A DNA stretch of 58,254 nucleotides from a virus (lineage: Duplodnaviria; Caudoviricetes), in IMG/VR virus record IMGVR_UViG_3300020235_001162, positions 1-58,254 of that record. One strand, given 5' to 3'. The notes beneath the pieces were generated by a model. That model saw nothing but the letters and a program-made list of their open reading frames with translations. It was not told the DNA's origin and did not search any database. The translations under genes were made by a program, and so were the position numbers. This document shows, piece after piece, positions 20,201 through 58,254 of the stretch. How positions within the stretch are numbered: the first letter of the stretch is position 1; every line of letters starts with the position of its first letter.

Positions 20201-23200
20201 GGAGGACCGCGTTGGTCGCTCCCGGACGGGTGAACATCGCCGGGGTTTCGATCAGGGGCTCGCCGCTGATCAGCTCCCGCATCCGCTGGGGCGTCAGCTT
20301 CTCGGCAGCGACGATCTCGCTCGGCTCGATGTTCCTCCAGAGGGTGACGAACCCCTTGGTCGGTTGGCTCTTGTCAGTCTCAACGTAGCCCTCGTAGCCC
20401 TTCTCCTTGGCGACCTGCATCATGCCGCCGTAGTCGAAGCTGCCGTACCTCTCAGTGACCTCGTTGATGATCGACTTCCACTGGGAGTCGAGCTTGGACA
20501 GGAGGTTGAACTTCCCCTCGACGATGTTCAGGAACTTGGACTTGCTCAGGACGACGAACTCGCCCCGGCGGCCAGCGGTGTAGAGGTTTACTGCCGCTTG
20601 GTCGAGCTTGAGCTGGCCGCCCCGGATGATCCTTTGGCGTTCCCGCCCGATGGCCCCTGTCCCGGCGAACTTGAGGAGGATTCCTTCGGCGGTGATGTTT
20701 TCCCGCGAGAGATGGACGAACCGGGTAGTTCGGATAGCTCGGCCCTGATCATTTCTGCGGCCTGCTCCGGTGATGGTGGCTTGTTCGGCATCGGTTATTG
20801 TATCCCTAACATTGAACTGAGTCGAGGCCTCACCACCGAGTATCGGGGTGAACTCGTTCAGCGTCATTTCGTGTGCATCGACTGCGTTCTTCAGAAGACT
20901 CTGGACGCGGTCCATTCTCTTGAGATGGATCTCAGCCCTCTCGCCTGAGTGCCCGTATGCCTCGGAGTACTTACCGGCCAGACCAGCCATGATCTCTGCA
21001 CCGACCAGCTCTCCGGACATGATCTGATTCCACCATGTCGGTGCAGCACTTTCGTCACCAGCGATGATGCCGATGTACTGAGCGATCATCTCATCATGAC
21101 CCTCCTCGGTCTGCTTCCACCGTTCGACCTCATCCAGCTGCTCTGGGGTGAACTCCCCCATCTTGAGTCTCTTCAAGTTCGCCCAGTACAAGGTTCCCAT
21201 GTGGTCCAGAAGGGCACCGTCGAAGCCGATGACATTATCAAGGAACGTCTGGTAGAACTTCTTCTCCTGAAGGGTGTGAACCACTTCGTGAGCCCACACC
21301 TCAGTGAATATCGTGTCCTGATCCGGCAGCGTCAGGTTGTTCGGAAGCACGATACGAGGTGACGGGTAGTCCATGATCGCCTGCATGGCATCCTGAGTCC
21401 CCACGTCAGCCCAGACCACCTCGACGCCCAACCGCCCCTCAGTCAGGTTGACAACCTCCTCCTCAAAGCTGCCGGGCAACGGATCTAGCATGCTGATCTC
21501 GGACATATCCATGTGCCCAGACGATGACATCCACCACCGTGCGTAGGCACCATGCTTTGAGTCCTCATTGAGGAAAGGCAGAACGTCTGCCTGCCAGTTT
21601 GAGAACTGAGTTGGACCTAACCCAGTGATCGTCGCCAACTCGTGCCACCCCATCGCCATGGGCCGATACGGGGTGATGATCTTCGTGTTGGCGATCCTGC
21701 CGTTGTGGCTGCCGTCGATCCGGACGTTGAGCTGTGACTCTGCGTCCACGTCCTCTGAGACGCCCTGAGAGCCCCGCTGAGACAAGGCTGCGGCAGCGAG
21801 GTCACGCATAGTCTGGATCTCATCTATCCGTATGCCAGCCTTCACGTTGCCCAGAGAGGCCATCACTCGGTCCACAGTCTGGATGAACCGCCGGACGAGT
21901 GTCGGCTTGCGTCCGACCAGCTCATCCCAGAAGCCCCTCTCCAGTGCCCGGACCTCGATATAGCGTGCGACGGCCTCCCTCTGGCCCCGCGTGGTGGCAA
22001 GAAACGAATCAGCGTCGGCACCGAAGAGCCTCAGGGAATCGGTGTAGCTGTTGCCTGCCGCCTTCAGACCTCCGGGGTCGCGTGCCTGAATTCGCTGGAC
22101 GAACTCGACATACTCAGCCGTCTCCTCCAAGATGTGGACCATCTCATGTGACATGGTCCGCTTGATCATGTCTGTGTTGTCGGCATCGACGTTGATGAAG
22201 ATCCGCCTACCGAACCGCTGCCGGTCCACCACCCCGGTGATGTGCTGCGTGCCCTCAACGTGGGCCTTGTTCCTCCAGAAGATCACCTCGGTACCACTAC
22301 CGGAGAAGATCGCCTCAGCCGCCACCTCCAGCTCTTGGTCCGCCTCCTCCACCAGCTCAGCATTGACGTTCTCGACGCCCTCACTGACGGCAAGGTCGTT
22401 GATGTCCTCCATGAACCCCTCACGCTCCCGCGTGGTGGACTTCACCCTGATGGGTGTCGATGGAGGAGCCTGATCAACCGGTAGCGGCTCTCGGACCACG
22501 TCCTGCTGGTCGCCATCGTCGGCCAGCCGCTGGGCCTCCATTGCGTCCTTCAACGCCCGCCGCTGGCCCGTAAGCCTGCTGATTTCCTCGTCAGTCAGGT
22601 CACGTTCGCCGTCCTTGCCGGTCTGGATCATGTCCTCCATGACCACGATCACCTGTTCAATGTCGCCTTCGGCCTGAGCCTCCTCAAGTGACGGCAGTGT
22701 CAACCCCTCCCCGACCTGCCGAGGCCCGATGAAGTTGGCCCCCGCTCTGGCCGCCTCGGTCCTGAACTTAGGCTGACTCGGCTGCCGACCATCTTTGGCC
22801 TGCTGCCTCATCTGCTTGGACTGCATCTTCTCAAGGTTGCTCTTCAGTCCGGACCTGTGGGCCGCACCCACCCCGATCCCGGCGATGTGCAACGCCTGAC
22901 CACCGATGAGCCCCAGCAGTCCAGCTTCCGGCACTCCAGCCAGAAGTGGCCGATCAGGGTCGATGGCCCCGGCGTAGAACCCGAACCGTCCCATCAGGTT
23001 CTGGGCGAGCTGGGTTGCCATCTCCTCGGTCATCTCAGTGCCGCCACTGATCAGGTTCTGGTTGACGATCGACATGACCCTCAGCATCTTGCCGCCAAGA
23101 TAGGCATCGCCAAGGTTGAACAACGACCTCTCGGCCATGTCAGTGACGGCTTTCATGCCCAGCCGTTCAAACAGGATCTCAGCGATTGCGTACCCGACAC

Positions 23201-24113
23201 CGAAGGCGACCGCATCCGCCGCTCCCGGCGTGCCGCCATTCGCGATGATGGCCGCCCGGTAGTCGGTGACGCCGCTGCCGAAGGCTTGGATCCCCATGTA
23301 GCCCAACATGGACTTCGGGCCGATCCTTCCAAGGAGCCGTGTGCCGCCGACGATCTTGCTGGCGACACCCAAGTACGACGGGAGCAGCATCTGCCCGATC
23401 TCGCCTGCGGTCACCCATCCACTGCCTTCCTGTGCGAGACGACCTTCGATCGATATGGGGAAGAGCAGCCCCCCCAGTGCGAACGAAGGCACCGCCATGT
23501 CGAACTCGCCCTCTTGGAAGTCGGTCCTCAGGTTGTCCGCGTAGTCGCGGTACATCTGGGCTGCGTCCGAGAACCCACCAAGATCCAAGAGCCCCGCCAT
23601 TCCCTGAGCGATCATCTCTTGACTGCCGATGAAGCCGCTGACGACTCCTGTCGTGACCTTCGTTATCGCCGAGGCATCCCGCATACGGTCGGAGATGGCG
23701 TCGTCGATGCTTGGGCTGAGCCTCAGGATCTCTGACCGCTCGTCGCGGGTCAGTGGCTCGCCAGCGAACTTCTTGGTGAGAAGATCCTCAGTGCGTCGTC
23801 GGGAGGCTCTTTCCTCATCCCTCATCATGAGGTAGTCGAAGCCCGCCGACATCTTCCCCCCGGCAGCATCGTCCGTAGGCGACTCTTCCGCCTGACGCAC
23901 GATCTCCTCTGGTTCCGGAGTCTTGTCGCCATTGGCGACTAGCTGCGAATCCTCACCTGCGGTTAGGCGGTCCTTCGCCTGAGTCAGTTTCTCTGGGTTG
24001 ATCCGGAAGGTCTGCGTCTCGCCGATCTGTCTCTGGCCGTTCCGGATCGGATCAGTGTGGTGACGCTTGAGCTTCTGGTCGTCGGTCAGATTGATATCTT
24101 CAAGGAAGGCCAT
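14259..24113 (-). CDS. giant internal virion (ejected) polyvalent protein, T7 gp16 position
   Basis: 3284 aa; two HExxH zincin motifs (HEMVH, HEVVH), an ART-like segment and an HhH-glycosylase-like segment; helical, membrane-like C-terminus. Confidence 0.85.
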   Translation of the reverse strand: MAFLEDINLTDDQKLKRHHTDPIRNGQRQIGETQTFRINPEKLTQAKDRLTAGEDSQLVANGDKTPEPEEIVRQAEESPTDDAAGGKMSAGFDYLMMRDEERASRRRTEDLLTKKFAGEPLTRDERSEILRLSPSIDDAISDRMRDASAITKVTTGVVSGFIGSQEMIAQGMAGLLDLGGFSDAAQMYRDYADNLRTDFQEGEFDMAVPSFALGGLLFPISIEGRLAQEGSGWVTAGEIGQMLLPSYLGVASKIVGGTRLLGRIGPKSMLGYMGIQAFGSGVTDYRAAIIANGGTPGAADAVAFGVGYAIAEILFERLGMKAVTDMAERSLFNLGDAYLGGKMLRVMSIVNQNLISGGTEMTEEMATQLAQNLMGRFGFYAGAIDPDRPLLAGVPEAGLLGLIGGQALHIAGIGVGAAHRSGLKSNLEKMQSKQMRQQAKDGRQPSQPKFRTEAARAGANFIGPRQVGEGLTLPSLEEAQAEGDIEQVIVVMEDMIQTGKDGERDLTDEEISRLTGQRRALKDAMEAQRLADDGDQQDVVREPLPVDQAPPSTPIRVKSTTREREGFMEDINDLAVSEGVENVNAELVEEADQELEVAAEAIFSGSGTEVIFWRNKAHVEGTQHITGVVDRQRFGRRIFINVDADNTDMIKRTMSHEMVHILEETAEYVEFVQRIQARDPGGLKAAGNSYTDSLRLFGADADSFLATTRGQREAVARYIEVRALERGFWDELVGRKPTLVRRFIQTVDRVMASLGNVKAGIRIDEIQTMRDLAAAALSQRGSQGVSEDVDAESQLNVRIDGSHNGRIANTKIITPYRPMAMGWHELATITGLGPTQFSNWQADVLPFLNEDSKHGAYARWWMSSSGHMDMSEISMLDPLPGSFEEEVVNLTEGRLGVEVVWADVGTQDAMQAIMDYPSPRIVLPNNLTLPDQDTIFTEVWAHEVVHTLQEKKFYQTFLDNVIGFDGALLDHMGTLYWANLKRLKMGEFTPEQLDEVERWKQTEEGHDEMIAQYIGIIAGDESAAPTWWNQIMSGELVGAEIMAGLAGKYSEAYGHSGERAEIHLKRMDRVQSLLKNAVDAHEMTLNEFTPILGGEASTQFNVRDTITDAEQATITGAGRRNDQGRAIRTTRFVHLSRENITAEGILLKFAGTGAIGRERQRIIRGGQLKLDQAAVNLYTAGRRGEFVVLSKSKFLNIVEGKFNLLSKLDSQWKSIINEVTERYGSFDYGGMMQVAKEKGYEGYVETDKSQPTKGFVTLWRNIEPSEIVAAEKLTPQRMRELISGEPLIETPAMFTRPGATNAVLQHVIDNGGITYEPFSDTIEVTGYAVSPFPERGVAITKSEQVNGKVTEAQIKGFLDANEDILSGNPATRLGVWFDNGSWYLDIVEVHSNERSATGAAIAGSQEAIFHLDKGREIRVQSKEEAAVSRAANDLSPPVVTEADRGPDEPDVGAQLNVVDELGNEVEEITDPFTGQQRPINADDILLRERKAAANLINPRVIKAALRDMDLEVQAQALAVPLLMGKVSTLAEARMWFEQRGEKDLAASGEPLGKVRGRAKGIKSQLAKLARANRPNKFRFAPPNIQNGRDRTKLKKRLIEMARIGVVGRFWYEGSGRHILNQFGGDKVAAEQFVQLISIMSATNPLQSNWQHASLAWLRWQADMEIHGFTESGREWWIGKYGWQGRTADALLAEGTMWEGRKTGSFYKNLMREIDPEGLGNPNQFISTIDIHIMRGMGYPTEAPTTPQYKWAEDLMKDVMADLNKDVADGDPLWETQQVQSAIWVTQKAIRPGKKQKKELAALLKDGMLPIPSDPLTTSVDFSNISEWQTGHVDFNAIPHESTGILPELLTASHLVQQAYTAEVMAVFYDEDGFDIIARELGLLKRGSGVSGNGLFRSLVRQNFDIVGSELAAKRQDRRRAMRSRTNAVLDRIKAGATISDLRDALLSIGEDAFFVDETVPMINRDTLKDWKVILRSGIRAEERGSQTTQQVWQTLRDYADSVLTDARVSMDVRKLLDVYAAAVGQVLHSPEVHWYRPFWKGTKKDSNGISYEFGREMTFGEHDTLTEEIEREFGGDVVLHPAENGLHLVYFGDAGPKGVANGDFQNRAKKLLERVLPEEVNAELKLFATDHGSQTNDYSENLDGENYQREIGLAGRPDIQRIIDTVIRPKIAEIQARWRQAIDRGSVQFNVEGPATAANEDGEKPPVVRVRKAREIYGALTEASIAVADLVPERIRLDRDETLSVIRQAMMDAEPRLRRFRTVIEQNVLEIIEFAADPKSGRFDPSKKHQIVTELREMASDKAKRANSDRRKRIREASRKVTISPEVDPSELIRMASSEDIIRREKAKNTRDAERKEFKRKANAIIEKAALAQREVRRRRNELLDTIIQILPAKFRPADLIRKINQIKTDKQLKVALGDVLVALNKVELRDAKANLLKVVNSVKLSSLPAVYKQAMEERIGNINFQKLTQKTRDRLQTIQNMISEDPAMEETFSKRERESLVKLSNTEVDDMTAAEMNLLSEQVKVVSKNAREFGKTFKRGKKVRIELLEAAVVGELTNEREAREPQPSGQARVRQAMNIASLPFKMETNLKPDALAALQSGSEGMFWETFFKDLVDSQRSWLRNHHIAVDVMEGAIDDAGIRPGDLATMSRVFAGSYGLFTAPIEAIRRRRAGKPGDLRSGETRAAVVIDEDGLEGILLESNRRLVMTKAERMHLVAMLMDMDNYDLIVNSGAPVTLKQGQAGDNFRLTRNDVLKIRASMTTAESLIVARTVEHMNTVMKAKLAAWSITSKGRDITKGDIHVSRHRVRSGDAFAEPTLEQYVDATLNSIGLQKDRGTDIKSPVEIRDWFVEYNNISWGTFALTEMADTHATARKLLQRESVQRALVAAGGSTGYWERMLTNLAREATGQGDNNGPFSSVIGSVINNLTKALLAVNPRVVMYQPASMLVANSEIEMKYLVIGGKSIGKSLTNNAKDIDNEIRTHSPTLRARFDSTALSVMNEFTGGGRILKGQKTSISDRMMAGIQWGDRIAIRTIWMASTAKVDAEFAQLTGDERMRKIAEIAEGVVSRTQPVWGALHTSGLGAQAKRIPVIKLVTMFMAQRNQNINMAVRGLMRYNRDPSQKLKAAKDIAMVAVGQTMFITAIAALWEWALGGFDDDDGDEVAAWLGGRSIDVFVGNIYFGDFYSFVTQVMLGFEQPFEPDFSPLSGSIEQLGRAGMTLRNSGGPNDPKFWKGLEGLTTSGFSMTPFGAWVAGYRMISRGWKNRIAEESSSSQKKPKRASAL
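17805..17819. repeat. 15-bp palindrome copy 3 (inside CDS, encodes VANGD)
   Basis: exact match; flanks extend it to a 17-bp palindrome. Confidence 0.95.
23925..23939. repeat. 15-bp palindrome copy 4 (inside CDS, VANGD)
   Basis: exact match. Confidence 0.95.
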
Positions 24114-27777: not shown

Positions 27778-30002
27778 TACGTCTTGCCTCTACCTGCGGG
27801 TATTAGCTCATACTCCAGAGCTTGGATGGCTACCTGCCCAGCTGAGTTGCTCTTGATCCTGATCACAGCCTCCCGTGGATCGGTCGCCATGGCAACATCC
27901 AGCGATCCGGTTTCCAGACTGGCCTGTCCAACTTTAGCAACCCCGACGCGATGTGCCTGCCATGATTTCGTGTGGAGCTTGGTGTGGTTCTTAGTCTGGA
28001 GCCATTCCAGAGTGAAGTCGGTCGAGTCAAAGTAGAAGACCGTCAGGCCCTTCATCGTCTCGCGGGCACCGCTGATCCGGGCGAAGAGCTTGCTCAGCTC
28101 GATCTCCCAGTCGAACGTGAAGCCCAGCCACTGATCTGTCGGCGATGTCCCGCCGGTCAGATCGCCGTCGAATACAGGGTCGCCGTTAGGGTCGATGAAG
28201 ATGGCCCGCCGGAACCCACCGCTCTCGTTCGGGCCACGCACCACCAGCATCGTGGTGTCGATATCGCCGTCCCGCCCGGTGTGGGGGATCGTGGTCTGGT
28301 CGGCGATGATGTCGTAGACCATGCTGCCGACAGTTGCCAACTCCATCCTGTCCATGCGTGGCACATACAGGTCAGGCTCTTCCACCGGCTGGATCCTGTG
28401 GAGGTAGGTCAGAAGACTGAACCCTCCGGAGCTGTTGGCCTGCTGGCTGACCATCTTGATCCGGCTGCCCCACTGCGTGAAGTAGATAGCAGGATCCTTG
28501 AACGTGAACGTACACCACGCCGACTGCACCGTCTGGGCCTGCACAATGAACGTGTCGTGGACCTCGACGGTGCCGTTGTCAAGGACGATGAACACCGTGG
28601 TACCGATCTGGAAGATCCGGACTGGTGTCTTGTTCTCCAACCGTCTCGGATCGTGAACCGTGAGCATGTCGGTGTAGAGAATCGACGGCTCACCAGTACC
28701 ACCCCACTGGTACTGGTGAACGTCGTCGAACTGGTCGATCATGGTGATCAGGCCGGGACCGGCAGCGGGTGCGATGTCCAGCGACGGGTACTTCGTGATT
28801 GTCCGGATCCTGCCGTTGACGTTCGTGAGCTTGTCTTCGCCTGAGCTGTACTCCAGCTGCCCGTTCTCTGCCATGAGGAAGATGGCCTGCCCGACTGTCG
28901 TGGCCCGCAGCACCTCGCCTACGTCATTCTGCGTCACGTCGTCGGAGATACGGTCGGCGTTGGTGATGGCCGACACGTTGTCCACCCAGAGGTTGAAGAA
29001 GTCGTCGTTGCGGCTGGAGGTGACGTGCTTCTCACTGATGAGAAACAGCCGACCGCTGAAGAACTCGACGCTCTTGATGTGGAAGTTGTTGATGTTGGGC
29101 GTCGAGACGTTGAGCAGTGCCCATGGCATCTTCTTGATGGTGGCCGGGCGACCACTGGCCCTCTGCCGCCACGGGCACTCGTCGAGTATCACCCTGTCGT
29201 TGAGGAGGTCGAGGATGATCCGGTGTGGCATGATCGTCGGGTCGTATCGGGCTTGAGCCTGTTCTGCCAGAGGGATCCTGTACCAGTTGTCGTGCCGTGG
29301 GAAGTACCCGTCCTCGTAGAGAGGGGGGCTTTCCCCTTCGAAGAAGACGTAGTACCCGGCGGGGTCGAACCCCTCGTCGAACAGCACCTTGTAGACCTCA
29401 CCGTCTATAGCTTCGGAATCCAGCGGCAGGGCTGTGAAGTTTGTGATGGCCTCGCCGCCGTTCTCTGGCGTCTTATCCATAGCCAAGATTATCGGGGTGG
29501 CGTCTTCATCCCCTTGGGTGATGTAGCTCACTGACTGCTGGTATGTCCATGCGTCGAGGATCACCAGCCCCATGTCCTGCTTGCGGTTGGTCAGGACCAA
29601 GGTGTCGAAGCTGCCGGTCACGTCTATGTCCTTGATGGTGTCGGTGGCCGTATCCAAATAGGCGTCGAACGAGCCTCCGCTGTTGTCCACCACGTCCAGC
29701 GGCTCACCGTTCTCGTCCCACGCGATGACGACCGTGAACGCGGTGATGCCACCCTTGCCGATAGCGAGGATCGCTCCCCGAATGGAAGCGAACTGGTAGG
29801 TGCCGAGGTCGTCGAAGTCGGTGTTCGCGTGATCGAGGAGGTCAATAATCAGCTCAGTCGGCTGACGCTTGACTGCCCCGCCGATCCGAAGATCGAACCG
29901 GGTGTTCTTGGCCGACTCCATGGTGCCGTTTCTGCGTTGCCAAGGAGCCTGTCCACTTACTCCTTGCCAGAGTCTGTCAATGACGATTGGCTGGCCCGGC
30001 AT
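27777..30002 (-). CDS. tail tubular protein B / nozzle (T7 gp12-like)
   Basis: LWQGVSGQAPWQR, GAVKRQPTE, FFSGRLFLI, SRNDDFFNLW, QSAWCTFTF. Confidence 0.9.
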   Translation of the reverse strand: MPGQPIVIDRLWQGVSGQAPWQRRNGTMESAKNTRFDLRIGGAVKRQPTELIIDLLDHANTDFDDLGTYQFASIRGAILAIGKGGITAFTVVIAWDENGEPLDVVDNSGGSFDAYLDTATDTIKDIDVTGSFDTLVLTNRKQDMGLVILDAWTYQQSVSYITQGDEDATPIILAMDKTPENGGEAITNFTALPLDSEAIDGEVYKVLFDEGFDPAGYYVFFEGESPPLYEDGYFPRHDNWYRIPLAEQAQARYDPTIMPHRIILDLLNDRVILDECPWRQRASGRPATIKKMPWALLNVSTPNINNFHIKSVEFFSGRLFLISEKHVTSSRNDDFFNLWVDNVSAITNADRISDDVTQNDVGEVLRATTVGQAIFLMAENGQLEYSSGEDKLTNVNGRIRTITKYPSLDIAPAAGPGLITMIDQFDDVHQYQWGGTGEPSILYTDMLTVHDPRRLENKTPVRIFQIGTTVFIVLDNGTVEVHDTFIVQAQTVQSAWCTFTFKDPAIYFTQWGSRIKMVSQQANSSGGFSLLTYLHRIQPVEEPDLYVPRMDRMELATVGSMVYDIIADQTTIPHTGRDGDIDTTMLVVRGPNESGGFRRAIFIDPNGDPVFDGDLTGGTSPTDQWLGFTFDWEIELSKLFARISGARETMKGLTVFYFDSTDFTLEWLQTKNHTKLHTKSWQAHRVGVAKVGQASLETGSLDVAMATDPREAVIRIKSNSAGQVAIQALEYELIPAGRGKT

Positions 30003-44254: not shown

Positions 44255-44284
44255 GTGGGTTCCTTTCGGTGGGTGAGGAGTAGA

Positions 44285-44313
44285 ATGGTAGGCAGATGGT
44301 AGCCTGAAGTCAA
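44285..44313 (-). promoter_or_regulatory. sigma70 promoter, CTAC-N7-CTAC family
   Basis: TTGACT-TCAGGCTACCATCTGCC-TACCAT. Confidence 0.8.
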
Positions 44314-44362
44314 ACCAGCCCCGCAGGTTTCCCCACGGGGCTGGCGTCAACCGAGAGCAGCG

Positions 44363-47548: not shown

Positions 47549-47590
47549 GTGGTGAGTCCTTTCAGAAGGTGAGGAAATGAACAGAGTCAC

Positions 47591-47619
47591 ATACTAGGAA
47601 GGCGGTCGCCAACTGTCAA
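47591..47619 (-). promoter_or_regulatory. sigma70-type promoter
   Basis: TTGACA-17-TAGTAT. Confidence 0.75.
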
Positions 47620-47637
47620 GCTGACGACCGGGTAATT

Positions 47638-50236: not shown

Positions 50237-50273
50237 GCGGATCCTTTCGGTGAGTGAGCAGGACAGAAGCTGC

Positions 50274-50302
50274 ATTGTAGGCAAGTGGTAGGCTGAAGTC
50301 AA
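50274..50302 (-). promoter_or_regulatory. sigma70 promoter, CTAC-N7-CTAC family
   Basis: TTGACT-TCAGCCTACCACTTGCC-TACAAT. Confidence 0.85.
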
Positions 50303-50313
50303 ACGTACAGCCC

Positions 50314-52947: not shown

Positions 52948-52984
52948 GGGATCCCTTTCAGTGAGAGAGCGGGGGCAGAACAGG

Positions 52985-53013
52985 ATGGTAGGCAAGTGGT
53001 TGCCTCAGGTCAA
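52985..53013 (-). promoter_or_regulatory. sigma70 promoter, CTAC-N7-CTAC family
   Basis: TTGACC-TGAGGCAACCACTTGCC-TACCAT. Confidence 0.8.
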
Positions 53014-53163
53014 GCCACCCGGCAAGTTTCTTTGCCGGGCAGTGGCGGTGAAAGCCTCCCCGCCCGGTTCCCCGGACGGGTGACTGAGTGGCCCTTGTTG
53101 GCGGGTTGCGACCCCGCCTCACCAACGCTTTTGGCACACTCGCGTGTTGGCTGCCGAGATTCG

Positions 53164-53760: not shown

Positions 53761-53824
53761 GATCGTGATCCTTTCGGGGTGAGTGGGTGAAAGCTCCCGG
53801 TCCCCGTCAAGGGGCCGGGTAGCT

Positions 53825-53839
53825 GTCGCCATTGGCGAC
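53825..53839. repeat. 15-bp palindrome copy 12 (directly after a stop codon)
   Basis: exact match. Confidence 0.95.
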
Positions 53840-54118
53840 TCAGTCGGAGATGTCCTCGATCATCTCGCAGTTGAGGGTCACATTCTGAGCCTGAAGGCTC
53901 AGGAGCAGGAGCGTCCGGGCGAGGCTGACGAGCGAGCGTTGCACGGTGCCTCCGCTCATGGGCATGCGGGTCCACTCGGCCCTGATGGAGGTGATGCCTG
54001 CACCCTTGCGGATGAAGGTGGCAGCCCCGGTGGTCTTCAGGAACCGGTCGGTGAAGTCCGCAGCTTTATCGGAGACGTGGATGACGAACGTGTAGCGGGT
54101 GACGTTGGTGTCGGACAT
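53840..54118 (-). CDS. small early protein
   Basis: repeat-associated RBS before MSDTNVTRY. Confidence 0.75.
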   Translation of the reverse strand: MSDTNVTRYTFVIHVSDKAADFTDRFLKTTGAATFIRKGAGITSIRAEWTRMPMSGGTVQRSLVSLARTLLLLSLQAQNVTLNCEMIEDISD

Positions 54119-54315
54119 TGGTCTGATCCTTTCGGTGGGTGAGTGGTGAAAAGCCTCGCCGCCCGGTGTCCCGGATGGGAGGCGTTGCCCGTGGGCATTC
54201 CGATTGCGACCGCTGGCACTCCTCCTTTGCAGGGTCATTCCCCGCCTTGTACAGAGTGGTGAACGTCGCACGGTGAAAGCTCCCGGTCTGCTTTCGCAGG
54301 CCGGGCAGCGTTGGG

Positions 54316-54444
54316 TCATGCCTCCGGGTAGAGGCGGATCAGCTCCTTGGCGAGCTGAGGGCGGGCCACGATGGCACGCCATGTCTGGGTCAGGTGGCCG
54401 AGGCGGACGATCCGCTTGACCTTCTCGATCTGATCCTTGGACAT
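54316..54444 (-). CDS. 42-aa basic early peptide
   Basis: GAAAGGA RBS before MSKDQIEKVKRIVR. Confidence 0.7.
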   Translation of the reverse strand: MSKDQIEKVKRIVRLGHLTQTWRAIVARPQLAKELIRLYPEA

Positions 54445-54508
54445 GTCGGTCCTTTCAGGTGAGAGTGACAGAAAAGCTCCCGCCCCGGTTTCCCGGAGCA
54501 GGCAGCGG

Positions 54509-54742
54509 TCAGTGCAGATGAGGGGCGAAGGGCAGTGGCTCGCAGGTGGGCTCGGTGACGTTGTTGGCAGCCTCCATGAGGTGCCGCAGTTCGACGCTGG
54601 AGAAGAACATCCGGGTCGTCTTGCCCCGGCGGGACTTCGCCACGATGGAGATGCCACCGTATGGGGTCCGGGTGTAGGTCCGGATGGTGTAGGCTCCGCC
54701 AGACTTGTGGGGCTGTGCGTCGGTCGGATTCGTGATACGCAT
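54509..54742 (-). CDS. small early protein
   Basis: repeat-associated RBS. Confidence 0.75.
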   Translation of the reverse strand: MRITNPTDAQPHKSGGAYTIRTYTRTPYGGISIVAKSRRGKTTRMFFSSVELRHLMEAANNVTEPTCEPLPFAPHLH

Positions 54743-54872
54743 GGTCTGATCCTTTCGGGTGAGTGGGTGAAAGCCCCCGCCCCGGTGTCCCGGAGCAGGC
54801 GGCGAACGTATCGGTGCTTACCATTCTCGGCTGCCACGCTGGTGGTCAGTGCATGTCCGAGGCTCCTTGTTG

Positions 54873-55061
54873 TCAGGCGACGGTCAGGCCGTCGCTGGTG
54901 ATCCCGGTCACAATGTTGTCGATGTAGCGGGGTTCGACAACGACCGAACCGGCCATGATCAGCCGGTCGGCGGGCAGGTGCTGCTCACACCAGTTGTCGG
55001 CCTCAGTGGTGAGGGCGGCGAGCAGGATGAGCGAACCGTGGTAGGTGACTTCGAAGTCCAT
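54873..55061 (-). CDS. small early phage protein
   Basis: MDFEVTYHGSLILL...VVEPRYIDNIVTGI; repeat-associated RBS. Confidence 0.8.
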   Translation of the reverse strand: MDFEVTYHGSLILLAALTTEADNWCEQHLPADRLIMAGSVVVEPRYIDNIVTGITSDGLTVA

Positions 55062-55126
55062 TTGTCTGATCCTTTCGGGGTGAGTGGGTGAAAGCTCCCG
55101 CTCGGCGTCAGCCGGGCGGGCAGCGG

Positions 55127-55336
55127 TCAGTCGCGGTGGTTGTAGTACTCATCGCCCGTGACCGGGTCGATTCGCTCGTTCATGTCGAGGGCCACGGTTC
55201 GGGCCTCGCTCTCGGTGGCGAAGTGGTCGTAGACGAACTCTTCGTCAAGGACGCACCAGCGAAGCTCGCCTCGGTGGTCAACGTCGCCGTCCATGGGAGG
55301 GTGGTTCCAGATGCGTGAGACAACTGTGAACTGCAT
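55127..55336 (-). CDS. small acidic early protein
   Basis: repeat-associated RBS before MQFTVV. Confidence 0.75.
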   Translation of the reverse strand: MQFTVVSRIWNHPPMDGDVDHRGELRWCVLDEEFVYDHFATESEARTVALDMNERIDPVTGDEYYNHRD

Positions 55337-55404
55337 GGGAGTAGCCTTTCGGTGAGTGAGTGGGTGAAAGCCCCCGCCCGGCGTCAACCGGGTGGGCGGC
55401 GTGG

Positions 55405-55731
55405 TCAGTCTCGCTGGTCCCACTTGGTGATGGGGGCGGGGCGGCTCTTGCGAGCTGGGCGGCGGGCACGGCGTCGGTCGTCGGCTTCGCAGATGAACTT
55501 GAACGATGCTCGCCTTTTGTCGGTCGCGGCGATGTGGGTCTGAAGTGCGGCCAGCAGCACGCGGGCCTCGGCCTCGGTGAACTCGACCATGCCGGTCTTT
55601 TCATGGATGCAGCTGGTTGAGGTCACTCGGACCCCGGACGGGTTCATGCTGTCCGCCGACATGGCGTGGATGTGGACGCTGCTGCCATCGACAGTGCGGG
55701 TCTGCTTCGGGCTGGAAACTCTGGTAAGCAT
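55405..55731 (-). CDS. early protein
   Basis: repeat-associated RBS before MLTRVSS. Confidence 0.75.
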   Translation of the reverse strand: MLTRVSSPKQTRTVDGSSVHIHAMSADSMNPSGVRVTSTSCIHEKTGMVEFTEAEARVLLAALQTHIAATDKRRASFKFICEADDRRRARRPARKSRPAPITKWDQRD

Positions 55732-55773
55732 GGGTCTGATCCTTTCGGGTGAGTGGAAAGCCAACCTGCCCGG

Positions 55774-55983
55774 TCATGGGAAGGTGGGCGACGGGAAGCT
55801 CCTCGCGGCGTTCTTCTCGTTGATGTAGACGACGTGGGCCAACTCTTCGATGGAGGCCACAGCACTCGCTGCGGACTTCCTGACTTTGGCCCCGTTGGGG
55901 ACGTTCACGGCGGCAGCCTTGATGCCCCTCAAGGCAGCCAAGATGACCTCGACGTGCCCTTGGATCACAGCTTGGTGCGACAT
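55774..55983 (-). CDS. small early protein
   Basis: GAAAGGAGGTG RBS. Confidence 0.75.
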   Translation of the reverse strand: MSHQAVIQGHVEVILAALRGIKAAAVNVPNGAKVRKSAASAVASIEELAHVVYINEKNAARSFPSPTFP

Positions 55984-56048
55984 GATGCACCTCCTTTCGG
56001 GGTGAGTGGTGAAAGCTCCCGGTCTGCTTTCGCAGGCCGGGCAGCTGG

Positions 56049-56372
56049 TCAGACGGTGACGCTCGGCGGGCTGTTGCGGTAGCCGCTCCGCTTGCAGGCG
56101 GAGGTGGTCCGGAACGGCAAGCCACTGCGGCAGCGGTCGCCACCGTGCTGGATGCGGCAGGCACCGTAATGCGTGGGCATCGGGGCGTTGTTGTGACGCC
56201 AGTTCAGGTACGCCAGAGCCTCGACGGCCTCGTCGGCAGTCTCGGTCTTCGCCACGGCGACGACCTCGGAGAGGAAGATGCGGAGGTCACGCTTCGTCCA
56301 GCTTCCGACCTCGCGGGCTGCGGGGAGGGTGATGGTCGTGCCGCCGTACCGGCCTTCTTTGAGAATGCTCAT
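56049..56372 (-). CDS. early protein
   Basis: repeat-associated RBS. Confidence 0.75.
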   Translation of the reverse strand: MSILKEGRYGGTTITLPAAREVGSWTKRDLRIFLSEVVAVAKTETADEAVEALAYLNWRHNNAPMPTHYGACRIQHGGDRCRSGLPFRTTSACKRSGYRNSPPSVTV

Positions 56373-56434
56373 TCTGATCCTTTCGGTGAGAGTGGGTGAA
56401 AGCTCCCGCCGGGCGTCAACCCGGCGGGCAGCGG

Positions 56435-56722
56435 TCAGGGGTAGCTGTAGCCATCGACGGGGGCGGGCTGGAGTCGCACGGCGGGGGTCCAGTCAGCCGG
56501 GGCGGGCAGTGCCGGGGCGTCCGGGACCAGCCCGATGACATCGGCCTGCGTGTCGGACAGGGACTTGGCGAAGGCGATGATCGTCCTCGACGCATCCCGG
56601 ATGGCGGCGAGGTGGCCGGGGCCACGCTCGCCAGCCTCGTTGGAAACGACGCTCGCCCAGTGGATGATCCCGGCGAGGTCGAAGTCCATGACGATGGCAG
56701 CGTTCTTGGTGGTGATCTTCAT
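56435..56722 (-). CDS. early protein
   Basis: repeat-associated RBS. Confidence 0.75.
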   Translation of the reverse strand: MKITTKNAAIVMDFDLAGIIHWASVVSNEAGERGPGHLAAIRDASRTIIAFAKSLSDTQADVIGLVPDAPALPAPADWTPAVRLQPAPVDGYSYP

Positions 56723-56790
56723 TGGTAGCCTTTCGGTGAGTGAGTGGGTGAAAGCTCCCCGGCCCAGTCAAGGGTCGGGGCAGCAGTTGG

Positions 56791-57087
56791 TCAGAGGGTC
56801 TTCCAGCCCCCGCCCTTGCCGGGCTCCCAGTAGTCGATGCGGGTGCATCCGGCGTTCGGCGTGCCGAAGTCGTCGAGGGGTGCGAAGGCTTCGTGGCCCG
56901 TCTCGTCCCCGATGAACTTGCCTTCGTAGCAGACGCCGCCATCGTCGTCGAGCATGCGGAAGCGGGTGCCTCCGCCACTGCCCAGCAGCAGGACATGCTC
57001 GTCGGTCGCGGCACGGGGGCCGATGACTCCGACGCTGCCGTCGTGCTTGCCTTCGATGTGATCCACGGTGATCTTGAATGCGTACAT
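56791..57087 (-). CDS. early phage protein (first ORF of the early operon)
   Basis: FRMLDDDGGVCYEG...FAPLDDFGTPNAGCTRIDY; GAAGGA RBS. Confidence 0.8.
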   Translation of the reverse strand: MYAFKITVDHIEGKHDGSVGVIGPRAATDEHVLLLGSGGGTRFRMLDDDGGVCYEGKFIGDETGHEAFAPLDDFGTPNAGCTRIDYWEPGKGGGWKTL

Positions 57088-57120
57088 TCGGTTCCTTCCA
57101 GAGAGAGTGGTGAGAGACAA

Positions 57121-57200
57121 AGGAGGCGGGGGGATTCGAACCCCCGTGCCAGCAGGTTCCGACGAGCGGCTGTCCTGCTGGGCGTTACCACAACGCCCCC
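57121..57200 (-). ncRNA. tmRNA tRNA-like-domain mimic (80 nt, no tag reading frame)
   Basis: acceptor GGGGGCG/CGCCTCC with G3-U70, stemless D-loop, 8-bp helix, CAC linker, T-arm GGGGG-TTCGAAT-CCCCC. Confidence 0.65.
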
Positions 57201-57211
57201 GTGGTGAGAAA

Positions 57212-57278
57212 TGGGTCGGGCAGGAGTCGAACCTGCTCCGGGCCGTCAACCCGGCTCCTCCCGCTGCTGCCCTCCCCC
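57212..57278 (-). ncRNA. degenerate tRNA-like element
   Basis: T-arm GCAGG-TTCGACT-CCTGC and arm CCGGG-TTGACGG-CCCGG; poor acceptor and D arms. Confidence 0.45.
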
Positions 57279-57571
57279 ATGTCGATGCCTGACGAGGGTC
57301 TGAGGATGGAGCAGTCGGGCCAACCCGATGGAAAACTGCCGCCGCCCGGTTCCCCGGACGAAGGCAGGCACTCGGACCACCCAGAAGGATGGTCCAGAAA
57401 GGTTTGAACTAGACTGGCTCTCGGCGATCTCCTTCCACCATCTGTGTCACTGGCAGTACTCCTTCACCCGCATCGAGTGGGTTGGGTGCCTCTGTGCTAC
57501 CGTCCCTGCCTTCACGGCCTGATCGTCGGCTAGGGGGAAGACGGTTCGGTGGGCGGTCGTCGTCGAGAGTC

Positions 57572-57588
57572 TTGAGTTGTCAAAGAAC
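57572..57588 (-). promoter_or_regulatory. boxA-like antitermination element in the early leader
   Basis: GTTCTTTGACAACTCAA, preceded by a small CTC-CGAA-GAG hairpin. Confidence 0.65.
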
Positions 57589-57725
57589 CGGAGTCTGAGT
57601 TGCCTCTTCGGAGCCGCGTCGTGGCCTTCCCTATGGTCTGCTCCATTCACTGGGCGGGAAGGCGGTGACTGGTCTGGCTTTCGCAGGCCCTTCGTCCGGG
57701 TGTCGGTTTCTGGGACACCGGGGGA

Positions 57726-57754
57726 AGAGTAGGCAAGAGGTAGGGCGAAGGCAA
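57726..57754 (-). promoter_or_regulatory. early-operon promoter, CTAC-N7-CTAC family
   Basis: TTGCCT-TCGCCCTACCTCTTGCC-TACTCT. Confidence 0.65.
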
Positions 57755-57936
57755 GTGATCACCACATATTTATCACACTGGTCCCGCCGACGCTGCCCGG
57801 CTAGACTGCGGGGCGACAGCGATCTTCGACATTCCTCCAGATGCCCGGAAGATGGGCAAGGCCGAAGTGCCCAGCAGTCCAGCCCCGCCGCCCGGTTCCG
57901 CATTCCCATCCGATTGGATGGCAAAGGACACACAAC

Positions 57937-58254
57937 ATGAGCTATGAAGGACAGAGCAACGCAGAGGACGTGGGGCCTCGACCTCCGGAGGACCGCAGTG
58001 ATCGGGACAGCGGGGATGGCTGGACACCTCCGCTGCCGCCACGCCCATCGAGCCTCGCAAGGACCGTCCAACAGCAGAGCCCGTCCGACCAGCCAGCCCA
58101 CCGCGACCAGTTCCATGACGACACCGCCAGTGCTGCCGACCTGCTCGCCACGAAGCCTGTCGCCAATGGCGACTCGCCGCGACCGGTCGAACACACGCAC
58201 TCCTCCCGCTTCCAGCCCGGCAACGTGGCGTGGAAGAAGGGGCAGGCAGCCCGC
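57937..58254 (+). CDS. 3'-truncated ORF, terminase small subunit-like candidate
   Basis: AAAGGA RBS; open to the window end; disordered N-terminus then SRFQPGN motif common at TerS N-termini. Confidence 0.5.
   Translation, partial: MSYEGQSNAEDVGPRPPEDRSDRDSGDGWTPPLPPRPSSLARTVQQQSPSDQPAHRDQFHDDTASAADLLATKPVANGDSPRPVEHTHSSRFQPGNVAWKKGQAAR
58159..58173. repeat. 15-bp palindrome copy 13 (inside CDS, VANGD)
   Basis: exact match. Confidence 0.95.

What the first reader, a model, noticed from the sequence alone, without database searches (positions are those of the whole stretch)
57121..57200. Stand-alone tmRNA tRNA-like-domain mimic at the head of the early transcript
Seen on the - strand: GGGGGCG-TTGTGGTAACGC-CCAGCAGG-(17 nt)-CCTGCTGG-CAC-GGGGG-TTCGAAT-CCCCC-CGCCTCC-T. 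It has a 7-bp acceptor with a G3-U70 pair (the AlaRS determinant), a 12-nt stemless D-loop, a long helix in place of an anticodon arm, a 3-nt linker and a canonical T-arm. That is the established architecture of the tmRNA tRNA-like domain, but with the mRNA-like domain and pseudoknots absent. The discriminator is U and no CCA is encoded. Inference: a decoy for SmpB, AlaRS or tRNA-targeting defence nucleases, a tag-less ribosome-rescue RNA, or an RNase P/Z processing signal. Caveat: an alternative 7-bp hairpin GGGCGTT/AACGCCC competes with the acceptor stem.
Basis: partly seen in the sequence, partly recalled or inferred. Interest (0 to 1): 0.8.

Follow-up and report, generated by a model that had tools for sequence, protein, structure and literature searches.

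The report
Phage mini-tmRNA: tRNA-like domain only
An 80-base stretch ahead of this phage's first early gene encodes just the tRNA-like end of the bacterial ribosome-rescue RNA (tmRNA), a little-described phage RNA type that probably jams or hijacks the host's rescue system.

Summary

Its acceptor strands and T-arm are letter-identical to the ends of real tmRNA genes, mostly from Planctomycetota MAGs. Of 123 matches to the 24-mer, 98 lie in ARAGORN tmRNA calls.

It is not called by ARAGORN or by Rfam's tmRNA model. But it is the only significant hit in the window to a covariance model built without it from 35 other TLD-only elements: 54.7 bits, E 2e-9, next best 15.7.

That family includes the published "TLD only" tmRNA of mycobacteriophage DS6A (PMC4131195). 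It also includes at least 37 IMG/VR loci and shows strong helix covariation.

My reading is a divergent member of a known but barely described kind. Its unusual features are U73, no C74, no promoter of its own, and a position in the early leader behind a second tRNA-like fold.

Function is inferred, not shown. The likeliest is an SmpB or trans-translation decoy released by tRNA processing. Rivals are an att site, a pure processing signal, or a decaying copy.

The parts
57726..57754 (-). Promoter-like unit: -35 TTGCCT at 57754-57749, a 17-nt spacer, -10 TACTCT at 57731-57726. It is the likely start of the leftward early transcript, about 520 nt upstream of the element.
   Evidence: This is one of 5 copies of a repeated TTGACT-17-TACCAT-type unit with a conserved spacer (family D7; alignment A4). 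The generic sigma-70 scan found 0 sites in 56900-58254, so this rests on the repeat only.
57212..57326 (-). Element A, a second tRNA-like fold 11 nt upstream of the finding. It has a 7-bp acceptor GGGTTGG/CCGACCC (no G3-U70), a long arm, the hairpin CCGGG-TTGACGG-CCCGG, the T-arm GCAGG-TTCGACT-CCTGC and discriminator A. Its type is unknown.
   Evidence: MFE fold in context and alone (-58.5 kcal/mol, z -2.2). Its best Rfam hit is tRNA-Sec at 17.7 bits, far below gathering. It scores 15.7-16.5 bits on the TLD models. A 251-nt contig of run X6 matches 57210-57329 only, with unlike flanks.
57194..57200 (-). 5' acceptor strand GGGGGCG, identical to the 5' end of the matching tmRNA genes.
   Evidence: The listed planctomycete-type and Brevibacillus tmRNAs start with GGGGGCG.
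57182..57193 (-). D-loop analogue, 12 nt, TTGTGGTAACGC. It keeps the UGG but lacks the UUCGAC of the tmRNA consensus.
   Evidence: alignments to the models. Among 32 distinct family sequences, GG is present in 31 and TCGA in 16.
57149..57181 (-). P2-like helix CCAGCAGG/CCTGCTGG (8 bp), closed by the cap ACAG-CCG-CTCGT-CGG-AA.
   Evidence: Pair probabilities 0.8-1.0. The equivalent helix differs in sequence but stays paired in L199, L201 and DS6A and across 42 aligned elements, where all 6 modelled pairs covary. The cap resembles aaagccgcacgcggaa of L242 and the DS6A cap.
57146..57148 (-). 3-nt linker CAC. Most family members have GAC.
   Evidence: CAC occurs in 4 of 32 distinct family sequences, in DS6A and in the full tmRNA of locus L098.
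57122..57145 (-). T-arm GGGGG-TTCGAAT-CCCCC plus 3' acceptor strand CGCCTCC. This 24-mer is identical to tmRNA gene 3' ends.
   Evidence: Of these, 98 lie in ARAGORN tmRNA calls, 6 in tRNA-Ser, 4 in tRNA-Ala and 15 are uncalled.
57121..57121 (-). Discriminator position, U, followed by UUG. No A73, C74 or CCA.
   Evidence: It is the only one of 32 distinct family sequences without A at this position and C at the next.
56791..57099 (-). Shine-Dalgarno-like GGAAGGA (57099-57093) and the first early ORF (ATG 57087, 98 aa, no Pfam family). It starts 34 nt after the element.
   Evidence: Relatives of this ORF in 22 IMG/VR loci carry no such element upstream.

Best explanation
The element is a gene for a 'TLD-only tmRNA', or mini-ssrA. 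It is about 80 nt and consists of the tRNA-like domain of transfer-messenger RNA without the tag-coding part. It is a divergent member of a family of 73-90-nt phage-borne elements whose published prototype is the TLD-only tmRNA of mycobacteriophage DS6A.

What is shown:
- It carries verbatim the acceptor stem (with the G3-U70 alanine identity pair) and the T-arm of tmRNAs found mostly in Planctomycetota.
- It has the family's D-loop length, P2-like helix, cap hairpin and 3-nt linker.
- It sits in the roughly 630-nt leader of the phage's first early operon, 11 nt behind another tRNA-like fold and 34 nt ahead of the first ORF.

What is inferred:
- It is transcribed with the early leader and cut out by the host's tRNA-processing enzymes (RNase P at G57200, 3' trimming, CCA addition).
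- The free RNA competes with host tmRNA for SmpB, and perhaps for EF-Tu or AlaRS. This would damp or redirect trans-translation from the first minutes of infection.
- With U73 and no C74 it is probably a poor alanine acceptor, so it would act as an uncharged sponge rather than as a rescuer.
- The same cuts would also trim the leader off the early mRNA.
For: Identity with tmRNA ends:
- The 24-mer (T-arm plus 3' acceptor strand) matches 123 places in 120 genome loci. 98 of them lie in ARAGORN tmRNA calls.
- Those tmRNAs start with the same GGGGGCG.
- Very deep short contigs of a marine-sediment run match only 57122-57150.

Independent mini-TLDs:
- A metagenome scan for the two acceptor ends 43-73 nt apart gave 5 loci. 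One is a near-identical copy of the window (L203). Three are 79-nt elements of two sequences (L199; L201 = L202), with other D-loops and helices, promoter-like words and an encoded ACCA. One is a false positive inside a full tmRNA.
- L199 and L201 score 73.6 and 68 bits on Rfam tmRNA, gathering score 47. DS6A's element scores 43.2.

Family:
- I picked 38 of the 118 loci as non-tRNA candidates. 37 of the 38 hit model R1 at E<=1e-4.
- On the 42-row alignment, 98.5% of cells pair, against 69% in shuffles and 50-57% when partners are slid. There are 221 double-change cells, and all 6 P2 pairs covary.

Membership of this element:
- Model R1, built from L199 and DS6A only, scores it 49.0 bits. The held-out L201 scores 56.3 and true tRNAs 14-28.
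- Model R2, built from 35 family members without it, scores it 54.7 bits (E 2e-9) with filters off. The next place in the window scores 15.7.
- Controls that share the same 24-mer score lower. On R2, tRNA-Ala scores 38.7-43.4 and att-type duplicates 33.9-38.5. On R1 the ranges are 35-38.5 and 15-32.
- 854 kb of unrelated viral loci gave no further element.

Fold: the MFE is the TLD shape.

Function precedent:
- Hudson et al. 2014 list DS6A as 'TLD only'. They say a similar molecule, chargeable or not, strongly inhibits tmRNA, perhaps by titrating SmpB (PMC4131195, passages read).
- Nawrocki et al. 2025 say the DS6A form inhibits endogenous tmRNA in E. coli (PMC11915505, passages read).
- Both cite Mao et al. 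2009, which I could not read.
Against: - Standard tools do not call it: ARAGORN 0 and Rfam RF00023 no hit at E<=10.
- It is the only one of 32 distinct family sequences with U instead of A at the discriminator and no C after it. This argues against normal alanylation and could mean decay.
- It has no promoter or terminator of its own, unlike L199 and L201.
- In precursor context the competing hairpin is almost as likely as the acceptor stem.
- A 107-nt contig of run X8 matches 57130-57205 with two changes in the internal loop. The match stops before the 3' acceptor strand, so that relative may not keep the acceptor helix, or the contig may be flawed.
- Own-lineage variation is too small to show selection. 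L203 is 99.8% identical, with 0 differences in the element.
- Host assignment is indirect. The portal protein has no relative in 401 sampled Planctomycetota genomes.
- Expression, processing, SmpB binding and any effect on trans-translation are untested.
Confidence: 0.6

Rival explanations
1. The 3' part (57150-57122) is the phage attachment-site core, a copy of the 3' end of the host ssrA gene used for integration into ssrA. The upstream complement that completes a tRNA-like shape would then be incidental or secondary.
For: - tmRNA genes are common integration sites (stated in the abstract of PMC11915505).
- The record is classed as a provirus.
- The 24-mer is identical to ssrA 3' ends. Uncalled second copies beside or near ssrA occur in several MAG loci (L069, L156, L170, L175), as expected of integrated elements.
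- An att-like copy also occurs in one viral locus, L191.
- The three letters after the discriminator (TTG) also follow some ssrA genes.
Against: - No tyrosine-integrase or serine-recombinase domain appears in six frames of the window.
- None of the four + strand ORFs tested in the 2 kb beyond its right end (L203) has a Pfam family.
- There is no second copy of the core in the window at up to 3 mismatches.
- The element lies intact and internal, with the same flanks in L203 and in a 977-nt contig of run X2. If the record is an integrated provirus, this site was not the one used.
- The four att-type duplicates named above (L069, L156, L170, L175) all keep A after CGCCTCC. This element has T.
- An att core needs neither the 5' acceptor strand, nor the family D-loop length, nor the P2 helix and cap. 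Acceptor pairs 5:68 and 6:67 covary across the family.
- It outscores att duplicates by 16 bits or more on R2.
Confidence: 0.12
2. It acts only in cis. Elements A and B are tRNA-like punctuation that recruits RNase P and 3' tRNA-processing enzymes to trim the long leader and set the 5' end of the early mRNA, or to leave a protective structure. The released RNA would have no role of its own.
For: - It lies in the leader, 34 nt before the first ORF, without its own promoter and in tandem with another tRNA-like fold.
- In the other early intergenic regions the same position, just upstream of a shared CACCCACTC...AAGGA leader, is held by a repeated GC-rich hairpin (7-9 copies). A structured processing or stabilising element before each early gene seems to be this phage's habit.
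- U73 and no C74 fit an RNA that need not be charged.
Against: - Any tRNA-like shape would serve for processing, yet 31 nt are letter-identical to tmRNA, including G3-U70.
- The element also keeps the family-specific cap hairpin.
- 34 of 40 family loci hold no tRNA gene. L199 and L201 are stand-alone genes with their own promoter-like words, so the family as a whole is not punctuation.
Confidence: 0.15
3. It is a decaying, functionless remnant of a TLD-only gene, or of a captured tmRNA that lost its interior.
For: - It fails Rfam's tmRNA model.
- The D-loop lacks UUCGAC.
- It alone lacks A73 and C74.
- It has no promoter of its own.
Against: - All 23 pairs of the four helices are intact, and the only wobble is the G3-U70 identity pair.
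- Half of the family (16 of 32) also lacks TCGA in the D-loop.
- Its R2 score of 54.7 is in mid-range for members.
- The two changes seen in a relative fall in an internal loop, not in a stem.
Confidence: 0.08
4. It is an ordinary or intron-containing tRNA gene, or just chance hairpins or a terminator.
For: - With ARAGORN thresholds lowered to 80%, a 'tRNA-Arg (tcg)' call appears on 57198-57120, and one with an 'intron' across A and B.
- The terminator scan flags the T-arm hairpin plus CCTCCTTTGT.
Against: - ARAGORN at default settings gives 0, with or without introns.
- No Rfam tRNA hit.
- There is no 5-bp stem with a 7-nt anticodon loop.
- The family-model score is far above every other place in the window.
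- The 24-mer identity to tmRNA cannot be chance: 0 matches expected for the 21-mer even at 3 mismatches.
Confidence: 0.02

Closest known systems
TLD-only tmRNA of Mycobacterium phage DS6A (JN698994, 28478-28560)
   Same: Both are phage-borne and about 80 nt. Both have a 7-bp acceptor with G3-U70, an unpaired D-loop of 12-13 nt with UGG, a short P2-like helix closed by an AAA(A/G)CC...GG cap hairpin, a CAC linker and a canonical T-arm. Neither has a tag reading frame or pseudoknots. DS6A also scores below Rfam's gathering score, at 43.2 bits.
   Different: DS6A keeps A73 and the CGAC end of the D-loop, and is followed by CUA. It lies between gp33 and a DNA polymerase III gene in mid-genome, not in an early leader. 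Its acceptor and T-arm letters differ, matching another host group. DS6A has a tyrosine integrase about 10 kb away.
Full-length tmRNA (ssrA) of bacteria, here the Planctomycetota type, and full-length phage tmRNAs
   Same: The 5' GGGGGCG and the last 24 nt are identical. The D-loop is also 12 nt, and the linker is GAC or CAC. Most planctomycete-type genes also lack an encoded CCA.
   Different: About 350 nt with a P2 helix, pseudoknots and a tag ORF (for example ...QLRMAA) against 80 nt with a capped helix. The full genes have A73 where this element has U73. The D-loop is AATGGCTTCGAC against TTGTGGTAACGC.
CDS-less tmRNAs of organelles (jakobid and other mitochondria; about 65-bp plastid forms)
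   Same: tmRNA reduced to its tRNA-like part and still conserved (PMC11915505, passages; PMC3590771, search listing and abstract only).
   Different: They are organellar, mostly permuted two-piece genes, thought to work with an imported SmpB for the organelle's own benefit. They are not carried by a virus.
Engineered tmRNA tRNA-like-domain fragments that inhibit tmRNA (Mao et al. 2009, known to me only as cited in PMC4131195 and PMC11915505)
   Same: The same kind of molecule. Reported to inhibit tmRNA strongly whether or not chargeable, perhaps by titrating SmpB. This is the basis of my mechanism.
   Different: A laboratory construct or DS6A form tested in E. coli. Nothing has been tested for this element or its presumed host. 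I did not see the original paper.
att sites of islands and prophages in ssrA
   Same: They carry a verbatim copy of the ssrA 3' end.
   Different: Those copies lack the 5' acceptor strand, D-loop and P2 helix. They keep A73 and come in pairs next to an integrase. None of this holds here.

Membership tests
tmRNA tRNA-like domain (as in Rfam RF00023) | 7-bp acceptor stem with a G3-U70 pair | tested here: met
   GGGGGCG/CGCCTCC, with G3 opposite U70. The letters are identical to those of the tmRNA genes.
tmRNA tRNA-like domain (as in Rfam RF00023) | 5-bp T-stem with a UUCGAnU loop, preceded by a short linker after helix P2 | tested here: met
   GGGGG-UUCGAAU-CCCCC with linker CAC. CAC is also found in DS6A and in the full tmRNA of L098.
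tmRNA tRNA-like domain (as in Rfam RF00023) | Stemless D-loop with GG and the conserved UUCGAC end | tested here: inconclusive
   12 nt with UGG but ending UAACGC. The MFE draws a 3-bp mini-stem. 16 of 32 family sequences also lack TCGA.
tmRNA tRNA-like domain (as in Rfam RF00023) | Discriminator A73 followed by (C)CA | tested here: not met
   U73 followed by UUG. The other 31 of 32 family sequences have A then C.
tmRNA tRNA-like domain (as in Rfam RF00023) | Score at or above the curated gathering score (47 bits) | tested here: not met
   No RF00023 hit at E<=10. Relatives score 73.6, 68, 61, 58, 48.5, 48.3, 46.2 and 43.2 bits.
Full tmRNA (ssrA) | mRNA-like domain with resume codon, tag ORF and pseudoknots | tested here: not met
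   Only 17 nt lie between the strands of the P2-like helix. ARAGORN finds no tmRNA.
Phage TLD-only tmRNA (DS6A type) | 73-90 nt with acceptor, D-loop, capped P2-like helix, 2-4-nt linker and T-arm, and nothing else | tested here: met
   It passes the same architecture filter as 32 viral-scan loci, L199 and L201. Its MFE shape is the same as DS6A, L199 and L201.
Phage TLD-only tmRNA (DS6A type) | Significant match to a covariance model of the family built without it | tested here: met
   R2 (35 members): 54.7 bits, E 2e-9, filters off, next best 15.7. R1 (L199 + DS6A): 49.0 bits. Controls with the same 24-mer score at most 43.4 bits.
Phage TLD-only tmRNA (DS6A type) | Stand-alone gene with its own promoter | tested here: not met
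   It lies 11 nt after element A, and no promoter-like site was found. L199 and L201 have TTGACT/TTGCAA...TATAAT words just upstream.
Phage TLD-only tmRNA (DS6A type) | Binds SmpB and inhibits trans-translation | not testable with these tools
   The only precedent is cited in PMC4131195 and PMC11915505. No RNA-protein tool was available, and no SmpB gene is in the window.
Ordinary or intron-containing tRNA | Cloverleaf with a D-arm and a 5-bp anticodon stem with a 7-nt loop, called by tRNA finders | tested here: not met
   ARAGORN at default settings, with or without introns: 0. No Rfam tRNA hit. Only at 80% thresholds does a weak 'tRNA-Arg (tcg)' call appear. tRNAscan-SE was not available.
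ssrA att site of an integrative element | Copy of the ssrA 3' end beside an integrase, with a second copy at the other end of the element | tested here: not met
   The 3'-end copy is present. But there is no PF00589 or PF00239 match in the window, and no second copy at up to 3 mismatches. About 7% of the genome may be missing.

The most novel reading that the evidence does not exclude
TLD-only tmRNAs are not a DS6A curiosity. They would be a widespread phage tool against, or for hijacking, bacterial trans-translation.

- Each element copies the acceptor and T-arm of its host's tmRNA, so the elements would also mark the host.
- This window would hold a further step in that line. Its version has given up A73 and CCA, and so probably charging. 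It is fused into the early mRNA leader, so that one transcript delivers an uncharged SmpB sponge and, after RNase P cleavage, the trimmed early message.
Probability: 0.3. Interest if true: 0.75.

Novelty: new member of a known kind. Interest (0 to 1): 0.6.

Why it matters
Trans-translation (tmRNA with SmpB) is the main ribosome-rescue path of bacteria. That a phage RNA could switch it off is known so far from one phage (DS6A) and from one inhibition report, which I know only as cited.

This element, and the relatives found while checking it, suggest that phages of many hosts carry such mini-tmRNAs. The one here comes from an uncultured podovirus-like phage whose tmRNA mimicry points to Planctomycetota. 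It is placed at the very start of the early programme.

If the decoy reading holds, three things follow:
- It gives a testable anti-host mechanism acting on ribosome rescue.
- It gives a natural set of SmpB-binding RNAs with covarying helices for structure-function work.
- It gives a sequence tag (acceptor plus T-arm) that links uncultured phages to hosts.

It also shows a blind spot. Variants without A73 and CCA escape both ARAGORN and Rfam.

Tried and rejected
- No DNA relative of 56500-58254 in the INPHARED phages.
- The exact 29-mer gave nothing in IMG/VR.
- Relatives of the first ORF (22 loci) have no such element upstream. Relatives of the DUF932 protein (44 loci) have none either.
- Two other neighbouring proteins had no relatives in IMG/VR.
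- The terminase is only about 22% identical to T7-group terminases, so no close cultured relative is known.
- The look-up of sequencing runs: no RNA holder listed. X8 is only guessed to be RNA, so nothing can be said on expression.
- Parts of the stretch without contig cover are not evidence.
- 151 Planctomycetota genomes with model R1 gave 3 hits, all 3' parts of full tmRNAs. No mini-TLD was found in those searched.
- The portal protein hit 0 of 401 Planctomycetota genomes at E<=1e-15, so host and prophage relatives are not confirmed that way.
- Element A's 3' 24-mer had 0 matches at up to 1 mismatch in 301 Planctomycetota genomes, and 5 at 2 mismatches. It had 0 in four named handles. A 42-nt pattern of A had 0 matches in IMG/VR.
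- The differences of run X6 in element A fall in the distal long arm and are not compensatory among those listed.
- The Protein Atlas on the MarR-like ORF gave only generic winged-helix leads under 0.9.
- Hits of the L201 element to cultured Pseudomonas and Brevundimonas phages were followed up for two (SM1, Kabachok). They are not mini-TLDs: 26-28 bits.
- Mao et al. 2009 is not held.
- Literature searches for other reports of phage TLD-only tmRNAs found only PMC4131195 and PMC11915505. Supplementary tables of PMC11915505, which list the 9 'no CDS' and 79 phage sequences, could not be seen and may already hold relatives.
Full report
**What is there**

The 80-mer's minimum-free-energy fold is that shape. 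It has a 7-bp acceptor with G3-U70, an 8-bp helix capped by a 3-bp hairpin, a 3-nt linker and a T-arm. The energy is -41.2 kcal/mol, z -2.42, and 4 of 200 shuffles fold as well.

It is 3 kcal/mol worse in the isolated RNA, where the acceptor pairs have probability 0.84-0.99. In a 341-nt precursor context it is nearly level, about 0.5 against 0.45.

**Standard finders**

ARAGORN finds no tRNA or tmRNA in the window, also with introns allowed. Rfam at gathering thresholds finds nothing.

In E-value mode only weak, partial hits appear: beta_tmRNA on the T-arm alone (11.7 bits) and mascRNA (16.3 bits). RF00023 (tmRNA) gives no hit at E<=10.

**Setting**

- The record is an IMG/VR 'provirus' of 58,254 bp, estimated 93% complete.
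- Nearly all genes lie on the - strand, from ATG 57087 down to 613.
- The layout is podovirus-like: helicase, ERF-type and PDDEXK recombination genes, portal or adaptor, tail protein, a 3,284-aa ORF and a large terminase.
- The terminase is only about 22% identical to T7-group terminases.
- A promoter-like unit repeated five times has one copy at 57754-57726. The element therefore lies about 520 nt into a roughly 630-nt leader, 34 nt before the first ORF.
- Eleven nucleotides upstream lies a second tRNA-like fold, element A (57326-57212), with its own 7-bp acceptor and a GCAGG-TTCGACT-CCTGC T-arm.
- The T-loop word GGTTCRANTCC occurs only at these two places in the window, with 0.24 expected.

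**What it copies**

The 24-mer covering the T-arm and the 3' acceptor strand was scanned against one genome per prokaryote species. Of the 123:
- 98 lie inside ARAGORN tmRNA calls;
- 6 lie in tRNA-Ser and 4 in tRNA-Ala;
- 15 are uncalled, several of them second copies of the kind left by integrated elements.

Titles were printed for 80 of the loci. By my count 55 name Planctomycetota lineages, 14 name Brevibacillus or Paenibacillaceae, and 11 name others.

These tmRNAs begin with the same GGGGGCG and have a 12-nt D-loop and a GAC linker (CAC in L098). In the planctomycete type they mostly lack an encoded CCA.

Very deep short contigs of a marine-sediment run match only 57122-57150, as expected of abundant host tmRNAs.

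**Independent relatives**

A metagenome scan for GGGGGCG and the 24-mer 43-73 nt apart returned five loci:
- L203 is a 99.8% identical copy of the window's right end, with 4 differences in 2,166 nt and none in A or B.
- L200 is a false positive inside a full tmRNA.
- L199 and L201 (= L202) hold 79-nt elements. They have the same acceptor and T-arm but different D-loops and helix sequences, promoter-like words just upstream, and an encoded ACCA.

Rfam scores these two as tmRNA over the whole model with the interior deleted, at 73.6 and 68 bits against a gathering score of 47.

**The literature precedent**

- Hudson, Lau and Williams 2014 (PMC4131195, passages read) list mycobacteriophage DS6A as 'TLD only'. 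They note that a similar molecule, chargeable or not, strongly inhibits tmRNA, perhaps by titrating SmpB.
- Nawrocki, Petrov and Williams 2025 (PMC11915505, passages read) count 9 'standard, no CDS' entries among 97,179 tmRNA sequences and 79 phage sequences.
- Both cite Mao et al. 2009, which is not held.

I located the DS6A element at 28478-28560. It scores 43.2 bits on RF00023, so it too is below gathering, and it has a CAC linker.

**A family**

The 130 pattern matches in these loci (overlapping matches counted separately) split as follows:
- 54 are ARAGORN tRNA-Ala, and 8 are other tRNA calls (5 tRNA-Ser, 1 tRNA-Tyr, 1 tRNA-Val, 1 undetermined).
- 4 lie in ARAGORN tmRNA calls.
- 64 were uncalled.

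A strict filter required 7 of 7 acceptor pairs, 5 of 5 T-stem pairs, a helix of at least 5 bp ending 2-4 nt before the T-stem, and a D-loop of 8-17 nt. It kept 35 elements with 32 distinct sequences, counting this window, L199 and L201. Among the 32 distinct sequences:

| Feature | Count |
|---|---|
| GG in the D-loop | 31 of 32 |
| TCGA in the D-loop | 16 of 32 |
| Linker GAC | 19 of 32 |
| Linker CAC (including this element) | 4 of 32 |
| Discriminator A followed by C | 31 of 32 (the exception is this window) |

The cap hairpin has a recurrent AAAGCC...GG form, which this element shares (ACAGCCG...CGGAA, as in L242 and DS6A).

I picked 38 of the 118 loci as non-tRNA candidates. Of the 38, 37 hit model R1 at E<=1e-4. 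On the resulting 42-row alignment:
- 98.5% of cells pair, against 69% in shuffles and 50-57% with slid partners.
- 221 cells carry changes on both sides.
- All six modelled P2 pairs covary.

Two caveats apply. The alignment was fitted to the model. Acceptor positions 1-4 and 7 and the T-loop were fixed by my scan pattern, so their invariance is by construction. The P2 and T-stem covariation is not.

Thirty-four of 40 family loci hold no tRNA gene, so these are not by-products of tRNA clusters.

**Membership of this element**

| Test | This element | Comparators |
|---|---|---|
| R1, built from L199 + DS6A only | 49.0 bits (E 5e-9) | held-out L201 56.3; two true tRNAs 28 and 14; element A 16.5 |
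| R2, built from 35 members without it, filters off, whole window | 54.7 bits (E 2e-9) | next best place 15.7 |
| Controls sharing the same 24-mer, R2 | 54.7 bits | tRNA-Ala 38.7-43.4; att-type duplicates 33.9-38.5 |
| Controls sharing the same 24-mer, R1 | 49.0 bits | tRNA-Ala 35-38.5; att-type duplicates 15-32 |

In addition, 854 kb of unrelated viral loci gave no further element. Family members with A73 and C74 score 46-61 bits on RF00023. The failure of this element there is best explained by its U73-UUG tail and its D-loop.

**Function (inferred)**

The verbatim tmRNA acceptor and T-arm, the G3-U70 pair and the conserved cap argue that the RNA meets tmRNA's partners. The only reported activity for such a molecule is inhibition of tmRNA, perhaps through SmpB, and I know that only as cited.

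The element has no promoter of its own and follows another tRNA-like fold. I therefore infer co-transcription with the early leader and release by RNase P and 3' tRNA-processing enzymes. With U73 and no C74 it is probably a poor AlaRS substrate; this rests on general knowledge of alanine identity and was not tested. That fits an uncharged decoy.

**The rivals**

1. An att core. Against it:
   - No integrase or serine recombinase is found in six frames.
   - There is no second core copy.
   - The site is intact and internal in a record classed as a provirus.
   - It has T where att duplicates keep A.
2. A purely cis-acting processing signal. In its favour, repeated GC hairpins occupy the equivalent place before the other early genes.
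3. Decay. Against it, all 23 helix pairs are intact.

**Evidence against my reading**

A contig of run X8 stops matching at 57130, before the 3' acceptor strand. The alternative hairpin competes in the precursor. There are no RNA data. The host link rests on the tmRNA match alone, since the portal protein has no relative in 401 sampled Planctomycetota genomes.

**Verdict**

The structural interpretation is right, and the kind is already known from DS6A but barely described. This is a new, atypical member. The by-product, that such elements are common in phage contigs, deserves a proper census.

Noticed in passing
window 57212-57326 (- strand): Element A is a second tRNA-like fold in tandem with the finding. 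It has a 7-bp acceptor GGGTTGG/CCGACCC, a long arm in place of a D-arm, a CCGGG-TTGACGG-CCCGG hairpin, a canonical T-arm and A73. No tool calls it. A 251-nt contig of run X6 matches just this unit, with unlike flanks.
   Followed up: partly
IMG/VR loci L214-L331 (for example L217, L218, L242, L263, L302, L315, L324, L326); metagenome loci L199, L201/L202: TLD-only tmRNA-like genes of 73-90 nt are frequent in viral contigs. They have a covarying P2-like helix and a recurrent AAAGCC...GG cap, and most sit in loci without any tRNA gene. The 2025 tmRNA database lists only 9 'standard, no CDS' entries.
   Followed up: partly
window 53764-56784: There are 7-9 copies of an intergenic unit before early ORFs. 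On the - strand it reads as a GC-rich hairpin with a TTGAC loop, then AGCTTTCACCCACTCACCGAAAGGATC, then the start codon. The second part can pair so as to cover the Shine-Dalgarno sequence. Arm 2 of element A resembles the hairpin.
   Followed up: no
window, 12 places from 7244 to 58177: The 15-bp palindrome GTCGCCAWTGGCGAC occurs 12 times across the genome, often just upstream of - strand gene starts. It may be an operator or another protein-binding site.
   Followed up: no
window 44276-44315, 47582-47621, 50265-50304, 52976-53015, 57717-57756: Five copies of a promoter-like unit (TTGACT, 17 nt with a conserved GGCTACCACTTGCC spacer, TACCAT) all face leftward. They probably mark the early and middle promoters.
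   Followed up: partly
window 14259-24113 (- strand): An ORF of 3,284 aa lies in the virion-gene block and has no Pfam family at E<=0.001.
   Followed up: no
L201 5890-5953; 4519-4592; 4613-4686: The metagenome contig with a mini-tmRNA also holds a Pistol ribozyme (55.4 bits, gathering 34.5) and two tRNA genes within 1.8 kb.
   Followed up: no
L069 1768-1791; L156 1149-1172; L170 6846-6869; L175 1515-1538: These are second, uncalled copies of the ssrA 3' end in Planctomycetota MAG loci. Three share an upstream AAGGACTTATAAAAA-like word. They are probably att sites of one family of elements integrated at ssrA.
   Followed up: no
loci L069-L188: Most planctomycete-type tmRNA genes with this 3' end do not encode CCA (CGCCTCC-A followed by TT, GT and so on). 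The Brevibacillus ones do.
   Followed up: no
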